Shown one piece after another: positions 39,881-42,875 of a stretch of DNA of 44,851 bases. Made by a program: the position numbers and the translations under genes. The first letter of the stretch is position 1. Each line of letters opens with the position of its first letter. The stretch lies in the IMG/VR virus record IMGVR_UViG_2974654489_000001, positions 1 through 44,851 of that record. One strand, written 5' to 3'. Source of the stretch: a virus. Taxonomy: Duplodnaviria > Heunggongvirae > Uroviricota > Caudoviricetes. Under the pieces are notes generated by a model. It saw only the letters and a list, made by a program, of their open reading frames with translations, did not search any database and was not told the origin of the DNA.

Positions 39881-40057
39881 ATGTTTTATTACAAAGACGC
39901 TACCGTGGAAGAGATGAAAAATGCGCATGAAGCCCTGGGTTTTCCGTTAGTGTGTGACGGGGATGCAAAAATCGTTTGGGTAGACGATTCTATCTGGCTA
40001 GGACCTATTTTAGACAGAGCATCTAATGCTTATTCTAAGGAGTTAGAAGATGAGTAA
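39881..40057 (+). CDS. Hypothetical small protein (58 aa)
   Basis: Strong RBS GAGAGGAGAGA; below ORF track cutoff. Confidence 0.45.
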   Translation: MFYYKDATVEEMKNAHEALGFPLVCDGDAKIVWVDDSIWLGPILDRASNAYSKELEDE

Positions 40058-40601
40058 CAAACACGAAGTATTCGAGTACCTGATTGACCAACTACGGCAG
40101 CAGGTAAATAACAACCAGTGCGAAGACCTGGCGCATGAGGTGCTGTCACTCAAGAATCAGTTACGTGACGCGTCGGCGCTGGTGGCTGAGTTACAGGGCG
40201 ACAACATTAAGAAATCTGAGCACATATCGCACCTGACAGGGCGAGTTAAGGAGTTACATATGGCATTGGCTGCCGCTGCCGGTGACGTGGAGGCGTACAA
40301 ACTTATCCGCGGACAGGAGCAATCTGGTTGTCGCAAAGAAGACGCTCAGGAATGCAAACACGATTGGTACTTTTACGATAAAGGTGCGTCGATGGCGTGC
40401 AAGAAATGCGGGTTAAAGAGCCCTGGCCGTCAAAAAGAAGATGCGCAGGAATGCTACCATAACTGGCAATTCGTTAATGGTAAGGCTCCTGCCGTATGTG
40501 TTAATTGCGGCGTGACTAAATCAAGCGAGTGTGAGCACGATTGGGAATATTATTACCCCAACGGGAGGCGTTGTACCAAATGCGGGCTGGTAAACTTATG
40601 A
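40050..40601 (+). CDS. Coiled-coil protein with three tandem zinc-ribbon-like repeats
   Basis: Three repeats of (E/Q)EC-x-H-x-W...C-x-x-CG (QECKHDW..CKKCG; QECYHNW..CVNCG; SECEHDW..CTKCG), also visible as nucleotide repeats. Confidence 0.6.
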   Translation: MSNKHEVFEYLIDQLRQQVNNNQCEDLAHEVLSLKNQLRDASALVAELQGDNIKKSEHISHLTGRVKELHMALAAAAGDVEAYKLIRGQEQSGCRKEDAQECKHDWYFYDKGASMACKKCGLKSPGRQKEDAQECYHNWQFVNGKAPAVCVNCGVTKSSECEHDWEYYYPNGRRCTKCGLVNL

Positions 40602-40803: not shown

Positions 40804-40983
40804 ATGGTACAGAGATACGAAAACGACCACGGGGATATGTTTCAGGTCACGGAAGGGCGCTGGGTGCTATACGAAGATTACGCGAAACTTGAAGCAGAGT
40901 TACAGAAATACAAAGACCAGTTCCATGATTACGTCGAGTGCGCGAACTGCGGGTCAGTTACACATGTGGAGGGGGTGGAGTGA
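40804..40983 (+). CDS. Hypothetical protein (59 aa)
   Basis: RBS AGGAGA; C-terminal CANCG. Confidence 0.45.
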   Translation: MVQRYENDHGDMFQVTEGRWVLYEDYAKLEAELQKYKDQFHDYVECANCGSVTHVEGVE

Positions 40984-41045: not shown

Positions 41046-41339
41046 ATGAGCCTGGCAACTGACATCCTGAAGCGAAGCGGCCTTGCGCCGCTGTCACCGA
41101 GAGCGAACACCCAGATATACAAGCGACGCCGTAATGCGCTGTACCCAGAGATTCAGGCCAGACGCAAAGCTGTCCGCGCCTGTGGATTCCAGAACGGGAA
41201 GGCCGTGAATCTCGGTGAGTTTAAAACACATGAACGCGCGGCTATCGCTAATCGGTTATTTAATTACTGGAAATCGCTGGGATACGAGGATATTCCGACG
41301 AAACCGCAGAGGCGACAATACATCTGGAGGCACAAATGA
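41046..41339 (+). CDS. Hypothetical basic protein
   Basis: 97 aa. Confidence 0.5.
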   Translation: MSLATDILKRSGLAPLSPRANTQIYKRRRNALYPEIQARRKAVRACGFQNGKAVNLGEFKTHERAAIANRLFNYWKSLGYEDIPTKPQRRQYIWRHK

Positions 41340-41776
41340 CGACTATCGCGTTTGACGGAAAGACAATGGCTTGTGACACGCGTGTTGTGTGTGGGAGTAA
41401 CTGCTACAACACTGACACAAAGATATACGAGAACGAATTTGTTGTTATTGGGGTGGCTGGTGACGCTGGGGTTGGAATCCTTTTAGTGAAGGACGATAGT
41501 ATTTTAGTGCCTAAGCATTATGATTTTGATTTCTCTGCCCTGGTGTGGGTTAAAGACATAGAAACGCTGTGTAAGGTGGAGTTCTATAAATCGTGGGATT
41601 GTGCGCTAAGTTCAGTTATTCCGATTGCGGACAGCTTTGCCGCCGTTGGTTCCGGTGCGCCTTATGCCCTAGCGGCTATGGAATGTGAGTATTCGGCACA
41701 TGGTGGCGTAGCCGTCGCTTCAAAGTTTGACCCTAACACCGGCGGCAAGATTATTACCAAACAACTATTAGGATAA
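41336..41776 (+). CDS. HslV / proteasome beta-subunit-like Ntn hydrolase
   Basis: N-terminal MTTIAF (Thr nucleophile after Met), VIGVAGDAGVG and AAVGSGAPYALAAM motifs parallel HslV. Confidence 0.55.
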   Translation: MTTIAFDGKTMACDTRVVCGSNCYNTDTKIYENEFVVIGVAGDAGVGILLVKDDSILVPKHYDFDFSALVWVKDIETLCKVEFYKSWDCALSSVIPIADSFAAVGSGAPYALAAMECEYSAHGGVAVASKFDPNTGGKIITKQLLG

Positions 41777-41790
41777 TTCCTACCCGTGCT

Positions 41791-41830
41791 ATCCTCCAGT
41801 TACTGCATACTTAATACGCACCTGGAGGAT
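41791..41830 (+). promoter_or_regulatory. Hairpin (ATCCTCCAG ... CTGGAGGAT) pairing the holin RBS
   Basis: 9-bp inverted repeat with about 22-nt loop; 3-prime arm contains the GGAGGA RBS of the TTG-start holin gene. Confidence 0.4.
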
Positions 41831-41835
41831 TAATC

Positions 41836-42144
41836 TTGGATAAATTTACTGAAACAGTGACAGGCTGGCTTCTGGCTGCCGCGCTAGCCGGAGGGGTAAT
41901 CGGACTGCGGCAACATAAGTCCGCTATTTCCGGCCCTATCGACGGATTCTGCTTTATCGCAACTGGCTTCACTTGCGCTGTATTTGGCGCACCTCTTGCC
42001 GCTCAATGGTTTGGAATCACGGGCGACCGTGAAATCGCTGGCCTGGGCTTCATCATCGCCGTCCTCTGGATGCCCATCTATTCCCGCCTCTCCGGTATCG
42101 TCGCCGGAGAATACATCTCACGTCGAGGAGGCCCGGATGAATGA
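41836..42144 (+). CDS. Putative holin
   Basis: 102 aa with 2-3 predicted TM helices, directly upstream of endolysin; TTG start. Confidence 0.55.
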   Translation: MDKFTETVTGWLLAAALAGGVIGLRQHKSAISGPIDGFCFIATGFTCAVFGAPLAAQWFGITGDREIAGLGFIIAVLWMPIYSRLSGIVAGEYISRRGGPDE

Positions 42145-42409
42145 GCTATTCTGGTTCGGCGGTATGCTGGCAATCGGAGGCACATCGCTGTTTAATGTGT
42201 ATCATCCCAGCGTGGATGACGGGCTATTTGGCAGGGTGCTCTATATCCTGACTGCTATCGTCTGCGCCGCCGGGTGTATCCACCTGTTACAGGGCAGCAT
42301 GTCACCAACGCTGCCAGAAACATTAATCACATTAGTTGCGCTGCGTCAGATTCGTCAGGCGTGGCTGTCATACGGAGGACATAAGCGTGTCTCGAAATAT
42401 TTCAGATAA
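42137..42409 (+). CDS. Second small membrane protein (holin or antiholin partner)
   Basis: 90 aa from ATG 42137 overlapping holin end; two hydrophobic segments. Confidence 0.45.
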   Translation: MNELFWFGGMLAIGGTSLFNVYHPSVDDGLFGRVLYILTAIVCAAGCIHLLQGSMSPTLPETLITLVALRQIRQAWLSYGGHKRVSKYFR

Positions 42410-42875
42410 TGGATTGCATTTTACCGCCGCGTGGGAGACTTTCTGCGGAACTGCGTATCGTGCTACATCGAACGAGAAGTACCTTACCATAGGCTACGGC
42501 CATTACGGGCCGGACGTAACCCCGGGTAAGACCATCACACCGGGTCAAGGCCTCCTGTTACTGAACCGCGACATGGCTAAGGCCGTAGCCGCGGTTGACG
42601 CAGCAGCACACCACTCCCTGACACAGGCACAGTTCGACGCTGTGTGTGACCTGGTTTATAACGCAGGTGCTGGTGTGATTGCGGCTACTACTGGCACAGG
42701 TAAGGCGCTGCGTTCCGGTGATATTGCGACGCTGCGGGCTAAGCTGGCGCTGTTCATTAACCAGAACGGCAAACCGTTACTCGGCCTTCGTCGCCGTACC
42801 GCAGGACGTCTGGCGCTGTTCGACGGTAAGCCGTGGCAGGAGGCGGAGGCTATTGGGCGCGCGGTGAAAGGTTGA
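42387..42875 (+). CDS. Endolysin, phage lysozyme (GH24, T4 lysozyme-like)
   Basis: E...D...T region with KYLTIGYGH matching the T4-lysozyme YTIGIGH signature; GTG 42387 after GGAGG RBS. Confidence 0.75.
   Translation: MSRNISDNGLHFTAAWETFCGTAYRATSNEKYLTIGYGHYGPDVTPGKTITPGQGLLLLNRDMAKAVAAVDAAAHHSLTQAQFDAVCDLVYNAGAGVIAATTGTGKALRSGDIATLRAKLALFINQNGKPLLGLRRRTAGRLALFDGKPWQEAEAIGRAVKG

What the first reader, a model, noticed from the sequence alone, without database searches (positions are those of the whole stretch)
41336..41776. Phage-encoded HslV / proteasome beta-subunit-like Ntn hydrolase
The 146-aa protein begins MTTIAF (Thr immediately after the initiator Met, as in HslV where Thr is the nucleophile) and has VIGVAGDAGVG and AAVGSGAPYALAAM segments that parallel HslV (VIAGDGQ..., IAIGSGGPYAQAAA). 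No HslU-like ATPase partner is visible in the window. A phage proteasome-like peptidase just upstream of the lysis cassette could act with host HslU/ClpX-type unfoldases or cleave a specific host or phage target.
Basis: partly seen in the sequence, partly recalled or inferred. Interest (0 to 1): 0.6.

Follow-up and report, generated by a model that had tools for sequence, protein, structure and literature searches.

The report
Minimal proteasome-like peptidase of phages (PPH)
This E. coli phage gene encodes a stripped-down, 146-residue relative of the proteasome/HslV protease with a complete catalytic site; the family is already described and annotated, many sister phages lack the gene, and nobody has tested what it does.

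The parts
41336..41776 (+). CDS of the 146-aa PPH-family proteasome-like N-terminal-threonine hydrolase (stop codon included)
41326..41330 (+). Shine-Dalgarno GGAGG, 5 nt before the ATG; the ATG overlaps the stop of the upstream ORF (ATGA), suggesting translational coupling
   Evidence: read directly from the sequence
41339..41341 (+). Codon of Thr2, the predicted nucleophile once Met1 is removed (equivalent to proteasome/HslV Thr1)
   Evidence: T in 123 of 124 family members, S in 1; aligns with HslV Thr
41375..41377 (+). Codon of Asp14 (equivalent to Asp17)
   Evidence: D in 122 of 124, E in 2; hhalign
41420..41422 (+). Codon of Lys29 (equivalent to Lys33)
   Evidence: invariant in 124 of 124
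41459..41461 (+). Codon of Gly42 (equivalent to the Gly45/Gly47 oxyanion hole)
   Evidence: G in 123 of 124
41648..41656 (+). Codons of Gly105-Ser106-Gly107 (GSG motif; Ser equivalent to Ser129 of 20S beta and Ser124/125 of HslV)
   Evidence: G105 and G107 invariant, S106 in 115 of 124; the only segment that pairwise BLASTP aligns with E. coli HslV
41729..41740 (+). Codons of Asp132..Thr135 (D-x-x-T/S, equivalent to Asp166/Ser169 of 20S beta)
   Evidence: D132 in 118 of 124; T/S135 in 109 of 124. The equivalence to Asp166/Ser169 is inferred from position in the alignment, not measured on coordinates
41046..41339 (+). Context: upstream 97-aa ORF of unknown function (phrog_9632/4947), also present in phages that lack the PPH gene
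   Evidence: no Pfam hit
41791..41830 (+). Context: intergenic hairpin (9-bp stem AUCCUCCAG/CUGGAGGAU) that includes the holin Shine-Dalgarno; holin start TTG at 41836
   Evidence: RNA fold dG -21.9 kcal/mol, z -3.6; identical in Bas71 and Bas73
41836..42875 (+). Context: lysis cassette. Holin (41836..42144), holin (42137..42409), endolysin (ORF 42336..42875; true start probably near 42387)
   Evidence: PHROG holin 2e-29 and 4e-34, endolysin 2e-48; Bas73 annotation

Best explanation
The gene encodes a cytoplasmic, minimal proteasome-type N-terminal-threonine hydrolase of the PPH family. Host methionine aminopeptidase is expected to remove Met1 because Thr is a small penultimate residue, as happens for E. 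coli HslV, which also starts MTTI. That exposes Thr2 as nucleophile. Thr2 would work with Asp14 and Lys29, with Gly42 forming the oxyanion hole and Ser106, Asp132 and Thr135 supporting the site. By analogy with every characterised relative (HslV, BPH, 20S beta), it probably assembles into a ring-shaped homo-oligomer and cleaves peptide bonds of unfolded or short substrates. It would do so without a phage-encoded unfoldase and probably without canonical HslU docking. In Kagunavirus it is a dispensable accessory cassette, inserted between a small conserved ORF and the holin leader, so it modulates infection rather than serving a core step. Shown here: homology, fold, conservation of the catalytic residues, purifying selection, absence of a partner ATPase, accessory status. 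Inferred: Met removal, activity, oligomeric state, peptide substrates, independence from HslU. Unknown: the substrate and the benefit to the phage.
Against: No biochemical or genetic data exist for any PPH member. The single protein falls below the Pfam PF00227 gathering score (17.9 versus 22.4 bits). The oligomeric state could not be predicted; Fuchs et al. warn that some divergent homologues may not form classical rings. The window protein departs from two nearly invariant family positions (Glu118 instead of Gly, Gly124 instead of Ala) and its clade has its own insertions (62-64, 81-83, 87-91). Conserved catalytic residues would also fit a ligase or transpeptidase such as connectase.
Confidence: 0.75

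Rival explanations
1. HslV surrogate: the phage protein forms HslV-like rings that dock onto the host's HslU (or another host AAA+ unfoldase), making a hybrid ATP-dependent protease that redirects host proteolysis.
For: It belongs to the same superfamily and has the same MTTI N-terminus as E. coli HslV. There is no phage unfoldase, so any energy-dependent unfolding would have to come from the host. The hosts of this clade have HslU.
Against: Pairwise similarity to host HslV is confined to the GSG motif. NCBIfam HslV models score 12 bits against cut-offs of 137-158. About 20 residues corresponding to HslV helix H2 are deleted; from established structures, that face of the ring meets HslU, so this point is an inference. 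The protein is no closer to HslV than to BPH, which has no unfoldase.
Confidence: 0.12
2. Not a general peptidase: the Ntn active site carries out a different reaction. It could be a specific ligation or transpeptidation (like connectase), or hydrolysis of a non-protein amide such as a cell-wall peptide stem or the Lpp-peptidoglycan link, acting as an auxiliary lysis factor released through holin lesions.
Against: An endolysin lies within two genes in only 2 of 45 independent lineages, and the neighbours are otherwise heterogeneous. Kagunaviruses without the gene keep the same lysis cassette. The model lacks the S3/S4 two-helix insertion that defines connectase. The best matches are true proteases.
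Confidence: 0.1
3. A catalytically irrelevant protein: a decoy that poisons host HslV rings, or the phage's prohead maturation protease or a structural protein.
For: No prohead protease is annotated in the relative's genome although a scaffolding protein is present. Mixed rings with HslV are conceivable within one superfamily.
Against: The full catalytic set is nearly invariant across relatives at 30-40% identity, which a decoy would not need. The gene is absent from most Kagunaviruses that share the same head genes, so it cannot be an essential maturation protease. It lies outside the structural module. The head-morphogenesis protein itself hits a 'head maturation protease' PHROG.
Confidence: 0.03

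Closest known systems
[quoted passage not shown]
   Same: About 140 residues; encoded by tailed phages and prophages of Proteobacteria and a few other phyla; Thr1 directly after Met with no propeptide; Asp/Lys/Gly catalytic set; helix H2 missing; no C-terminal S12/H5 elements. PHROG 1040 E 6e-35. Near-identical GenBank proteins are already annotated this way.
   Different: Nothing substantive. The Kagunavirus/Jerseyvirus clade has small lineage-specific insertions (res 62-64, 81-83, 87-91), Asp53 where the family mostly has Trp, and Glu118/Gly124 at two otherwise conserved positions. Direct clustering with the published PPH reference sequence could not be done.
BPH, bacterial (Betaproteobacteria) proteasome homologue (PDB 5ovs, 5ovu; Fuchs et al. 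JBC 2018, PMC5777263)
   Different: BPH is ~185-200 residues, keeps both H1 and H2, has an elongated acidic pore loop and is a chromosomal bacterial gene that forms tetradecamers. The phage protein is 146 residues, lacks H2, and its oligomeric state is unknown.
HslV (ClpQ), peptidase of the HslUV ATP-dependent protease (e.g. PDB 1m4y, 1e94; E. coli b3932)
   Different: HslV is 171-183 residues with H2 and is encoded in an operon with hslU, on which its activity depends. The phage protein scores 12 bits against NCBIfam HslV cut-offs of 137-158, has no hslU partner, and aligns pairwise with host HslV over only 21 residues.
20S proteasome beta subunits (Pfam PF00227, MEROPS family T1)
   Different: Beta subunits are ~200 residues or more, usually with a propeptide, H2 and C-terminal elements, and they work inside an alpha/beta four-ring particle. 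The window protein is below the PF00227 gathering score on its own.

Membership tests
Proteasome-like Ntn hydrolase superfamily (Pfam PF00227 / MEROPS T1 fold) | Alpha-beta-beta-alpha Ntn sandwich superposable on proteasome beta/HslV | tested here: met
Proteasome-like Ntn hydrolase superfamily (Pfam PF00227 / MEROPS T1 fold) | N-terminal Thr/Ser nucleophile plus Asp17, Lys33 and the Gly47 oxyanion hole | tested here: met
   Thr2, Asp14, Lys29 and Gly42 are present in the window protein and 98-100% conserved in 124 relatives; positions are equivalent in hhalign against HslV. Three-dimensional geometry was not measured because no coordinates were exposed.
Proteasome-like Ntn hydrolase superfamily (Pfam PF00227 / MEROPS T1 fold) | Score above the Pfam gathering threshold for PF00227 | tested here: not met
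   17.9 bits against a cut-off of 22.4, E 0.0025. However, 72 of 124 family members hit PF00227 at E<=0.01, best 3e-11, and the family profile hits PDB proteasome/HslV chains at E 1e-12. The single-sequence miss reflects divergence, not non-homology.
Proteasome-like Ntn hydrolase superfamily (Pfam PF00227 / MEROPS T1 fold) | Peptidase activity that depends on the N-terminal Thr | not testable with these tools
   Needs biochemistry; no published assay for any PPH member was found
HslV (NCBIfam TIGR03692 / NF003964) | Score above the curated equivalog cut-off | tested here: not met
   12.2 bits against 157.75, and 11.7 against 137
HslV (NCBIfam TIGR03692 / NF003964) | Full H1-H2 helix pair and a length of ~171-183 residues | tested here: not met
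   146 residues; a single helix (46-52) at the H1/H2 position in the AF2 model; a ~20-residue gap opposite HslV H2 in hhalign
HslV (NCBIfam TIGR03692 / NF003964) | Cognate HslU ATPase encoded alongside | tested here: not met
   tblastn of E. coli HslU against the window gives best E 5.3; none in the Bas73 annotation; none among neighbours in 45 lineages
HslV (NCBIfam TIGR03692 / NF003964) | Dodecamer that is activated by HslU docking | not testable with these tools
   No multimer prediction or biochemistry was available
PPH (Fuchs, Alva and Lupas 2021) | About 140 residues, compact, no propeptide, no C-terminal S12/H5 | tested here: met
   146 aa; Thr directly after Met1; the model ends with strand 139-143; definition
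PPH (Fuchs, Alva and Lupas 2021) | Lacks helix H2 (shared only with RPC) | tested here: met
   AF2 secondary structure shows only H46-52 before strand 66-72; hhalign gap
PPH (Fuchs, Alva and Lupas 2021) | Encoded by tailed phages and prophages, mainly of Proteobacteria | tested here: met
   The window is a Kagunavirus-type siphophage; 296 phage records; 313 or more viral contigs; bacterial hits in Proteobacteria plus a planctomycete and an acidobacterial MAG
PPH (Fuchs, Alva and Lupas 2021) | Clusters by sequence with the published PPH set (reference WP_042125023.1) | not tested
   The reference sequence and cluster files are not in the tools' reach; the supplement held as text is a short docx
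PHROG 1040 'peptidase HslV family' | Significant match to the family HMM | tested here: met
   E 6.2e-35, 122 bits, residues 1-143 on profile positions 14-155 of 277
Connectase | Two-helix insertion between S3 and S4 covering the active site; first helix pair absent | tested here: not met
BPH | About 185-200 residues with H1 and H2 and an elongated acidic pore loop | tested here: not met
   146 residues, no H2; description of BPH

The most novel reading that the evidence does not exclude
PPH is an unfoldase-independent accessory protease that phages swap in and out as a cassette. It would destroy one specific host protein, for example an immunity or stress-response factor. In Guernseyvirinae it could instead tune lysis timing by processing a holin/antiholin or another late protein. 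Either way it would be a new class of phage counter-defence or host-takeover effector built on the proteasome fold.
Probability: 0.15. Interest if true: 0.7.

Novelty: already known. Interest (0 to 1): 0.3.

Why it matters
[quoted passage not shown] A 146-residue proteasome-like enzyme lacking one of the four canonical helices and any dedicated unfoldase raises two questions: how small a self-compartmentalising protease can be, and what a virus gains from carrying one. This window adds no new kind of protein. The analysis does show that the gene is a cleanly bounded accessory cassette in Kagunavirus. Natural plus and minus phages, such as the BASEL isolates Bas73 and Bas71, grow on E. coli K-12 with restored O-antigen, so the function can be tested by simple genetics.

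Tried and rejected
1. Structure prediction with a shallow alignment (35 sequences at >=80% identity) gave pLDDT 47 and was discarded. Only the alignment of distant relatives gave a usable model.
2. Single-sequence searches against Pfam, NCBIfam and the PDB were sub-threshold or weak. Profiles were needed.
3. Search for a conserved genomic partner: BLAST clustering of +/-5 genes in 79 viral loci (45 lineages) and a PHROG census of +/-2 genes found nothing recurrent. Terminase large subunit, in 6 members, was the most frequent.
4. Bacterial loci (43, many in Acetobacteraceae) showed no conserved synteny. My ORF calling in high-GC DNA is crude, so this is weak evidence.
5. PADLOC gave no hit for the protein or the upstream ORF.
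6. Literature: no experimental work on PPH or phage 'HslV family' proteins. The JSS1_004 paper mentions only host hslVU.
7. BASEL phenotype data: no phenotype linked to this gene is reported, and only one of seven BASEL Kagunaviruses carries it, so no correlation can be drawn.
8. The first genome-contig scan, with the broad alignment, failed for lack of a conserved stretch. It worked with a narrower alignment.
9. A 14-nt perfect inverted repeat between the upstream ORF and the PPH gene is not maintained in relatives and is probably chance.
10. Promoter and terminator scans were at chance level and support no claim about transcription units.

Full report
OBSERVATION. The ORF at 41336..41776 (+ strand, ATG, 146 aa) exists and reads exactly as the first-stage reader wrote: MTTIAFDGKTMACD..., VIGVAGDAGVG, AAVGSGAPYALAAM. 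A GGAGG lies 5 nt upstream, and the ATG overlaps the stop codon of a 97-aa upstream ORF (ATGA). The window is nearly a whole Kagunavirus-type siphophage genome (Guernseyvirinae), about 88-91% identical in this region to E. coli phages vB_Eco_K-01, Bas73, 590B and others. The gene is followed after 59 nt by two holins and an endolysin. It is a genuine, constrained gene: dN/dS against clade relatives is 0.07-0.17.

IS IT PROTEASOME/HslV-LIKE? On its own the sequence is borderline. Pfam PF00227 scores 17.9 bits against a cut-off of 22.4. The NCBIfam HslV and 20S-beta models score 12-20 bits against cut-offs of 137-224. Matches to PDB sequences have E 0.04-1.6. PHROG 1040, 'peptidase HslV family', matches at E 6e-35. 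An exhaustive profile search found 3,993 clusters at 50% identity (224 at E<=1e-10). Almost all are 135-155 residues, match from residue 1, and start MTT (119 of 150), MTV or MTI.

ACTIVE SITE. These positions are at least 90% conserved across the 124 relatives: Met1, Thr2 (123 T, 1 S), Ala5, Ala12, Asp14, Lys29 (invariant), Gly42, Ala103, Gly105-Ser106-Gly107, Ala111, Ala114, Met115, Gly118, Ala124, Ala128 and Asp132. Position 135 is Thr or Ser in 88%. By alignment these are Thr1, Asp17, Lys33, Gly45/47, Ser124/129 and, by inference, Asp166/Ser169 of HslV and the proteasome (residue roles as summarised in PMC8665760).

VIGVAGDAGVG corresponds to the oxyanion-hole segment of HslV (VIAGFAGG), and the Asp17 segment of HslV (VIAGDGQ) corresponds to KTMACDTR. 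E. coli HslV also begins MTTI. Exposure of Thr by methionine aminopeptidase is the established route for HslV, and I infer the same here. I could not measure the Thr/Lys/Gly geometry because model coordinates are not exposed.

WHAT IT IS NOT. It is not an HslV orthologue. The NCBIfam cut-offs are missed by an order of magnitude. Pairwise BLASTP against host HslV aligns only 21 residues around GSG. The model has one short helix (46-52) where HslV and the proteasome have the H1/H2 pair, matching a ~20-residue gap in the HslV alignment. The protein is as close to BPH and beta5 as it is to HslV. No HslU-like gene is in the window or in the annotated genome of Bas73. It is not in the PADLOC defence library.

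WHAT IT IS. [quoted passage not shown] PPH has about 140 residues, is found in Caudovirales and prophages, and belongs to group I with HslV, BPH, AAH and CPH. It has no propeptide, no S12/H5 elements and, with its relative RPC, is unique in lacking helix H2. [quoted passage not shown] Every feature I could test is met. The one test I could not run is direct clustering with their reference sequence. Near-identical proteins in GenBank are already annotated 'peptidase HslV family', 'ATP-dependent protease' or 'protease', and at least 35 other viral proteins in BFVD share the fold. I found no experimental study of any member.

CONTEXT AND DISPENSABILITY (new here). About 114 non-Salmonella records match the 2.1-kb region, but only about 35 encode the protein. 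In Bas71, K1G, K1ind3, Golestan, fBC-Eco01 and many others, the part of the record that matches the flanks is ~420-460 bp shorter than the query. A three-way alignment shows that in Bas71 the 97-aa ORF runs almost directly into the holin leader. The ~420-bp gene is precisely absent, and the last ~20 nt before the stop and the whole intergenic hairpin are retained.

The gene is therefore an accessory cassette. That excludes an essential role such as prohead maturation or core lysis. Only Bas73 among the seven BASEL Kagunaviruses carries it, and the BASEL paper reports that these isolates behave very similarly. Two records carry it in two BLAST pieces, possibly frameshifted.

Across 79 viral loci falling into 45 independent lineages, no neighbour is shared by more than 7 lineages. 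A PHROG census of the four nearest genes gives terminase large subunit (6 members), connector proteins (3 each) and endolysin (2), with no unfoldase among the 25 families listed. The lysis adjacency is thus particular to Guernseyvirinae. Bacterial homologues occur in many Acetobacteraceae, in Yersinia, Morganella and Pantoea, and in a few MAGs of other phyla. They show no conserved synteny, although my gene calling there is crude.

MECHANISM. The best-supported reading (confidence ~0.75) is an active N-terminal-threonine peptidase of the PPH family. It is probably a ring-shaped homo-oligomer like all characterised relatives, and it acts without a phage unfoldase. BPH, the closest solved structure, also lacks a known unfoldase yet binds epoxomicin through a classical proteasomal mechanism.

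Use of host HslU (confidence ~0.12) is not excluded. It is disfavoured by the loss of H2, which in known structures lies on the ring face that meets the regulator (an inference from established structures, not tested here), and by the lack of any special similarity to HslV. A non-peptidase reaction or an auxiliary lysis role (~0.10) is suggested only by the clade-specific gene order. A decoy or morphogenetic role (~0.03) conflicts with the conserved active site and with dispensability. The substrate and the selective benefit remain unknown.

VERDICT. The kind is already known and annotated, so novelty is low. Interest is modest: a specialist would not be surprised, but the open question of what phages do with a minimal proteasome can be tested directly with the natural plus and minus Kagunaviruses identified here.

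Noticed in passing
window 3405..5198 (+), especially 4605..5195: The 597-aa SPP1-gp7/MuF-like head-morphogenesis protein (phrog_241, E 1e-155) carries a C-terminal ADP-ribosyltransferase exoenzyme domain (Pfam PF03496, 53.9 bits against a cut-off of 23.4, E 1.9e-14). In relative Bas73 the head-morphogenesis CDS is only 359 aa. This may be a capsid-packaged MuF-fused ART toxin or effector.
   Followed up: partly
window 41791..41830 (+): The intergenic hairpin between the PPH stop and the holin has a 9-bp stem, AUCCUCCAG/CUGGAGGAU, whose 3' arm contains the holin Shine-Dalgarno. The holin starts with TTG at 41836. dG is -21.9 kcal/mol and z is -3.6; the sequence is identical in Bas71 and Bas73. 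It may act as a translational brake on holin synthesis.
   Followed up: partly
window 41164..41177 and 41627..41640: A perfect 14-nt inverted repeat (GCAAAGCTGTCCGC / GCGGACAGCTTTGC) links the upstream ORF and the PPH gene; about 0.003 such pairs are expected by chance in 1.2 kb. Relatives do not keep the complementarity and show no compensatory changes, so it is probably fortuitous.
   Followed up: yes
window 40050..40601 (+): A 183-aa ORF (phrog_6094, unknown function) has an N-terminal coiled-coil-like part and three tandem Cys-rich repeats (C-x-HDW/HNW...C-x2-CG), which look like zinc ribbons.
   Followed up: no
window 40804..40983 (+): A 59-aa ORF gives a weak hit to Lar-like restriction alleviation protein (phrog_3592, E 1.5e-4) besides its own family of unknown function.
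   Followed up: no
window ~6390..6776 (+); Bas73_0008/0009 in L004 5509..6004: In the relative's annotation, the Rz-like spanin genes sit inside the head module, about 35 kb from holin and endolysin, so the lysis cassette of these phages is split. The equivalent 128-aa ORF in the window was not checked.
   Followed up: no
phage records OR061069.1 (M01) and PQ474795.1 (vB_Eco_AMO_3701M): The PPH homologue matches in two tblastn pieces covering 83-84% of the protein. This may be a frameshift or pseudogene and would fit the gene being dispensable.
   Followed up: no
L089-L112 (Acetobacteraceae genomes: Roseomonas, Falsiroseomonas, Muricoccus and others): About 20 species of one bacterial family carry a ~134-139-aa PPH homologue (33-41% identity) on large chromosomal contigs, with no shared neighbours detectable by my crude ORF calling. 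Prophage origin was not checked.
   Followed up: partly
BFVD hits A0A1W6DWU9 (263 aa, 60% identity), A0A5B9NBU4, A0A6G5YGZ5, A0A2I7R6C7 (275-279 aa); PHROG 1040 profile length 277: Some viral relatives are about twice as long as the PPH core. They may be fusions, members of the C-terminally extended 'RPC' relatives of PPH, or start-codon mis-annotations.
   Followed up: no
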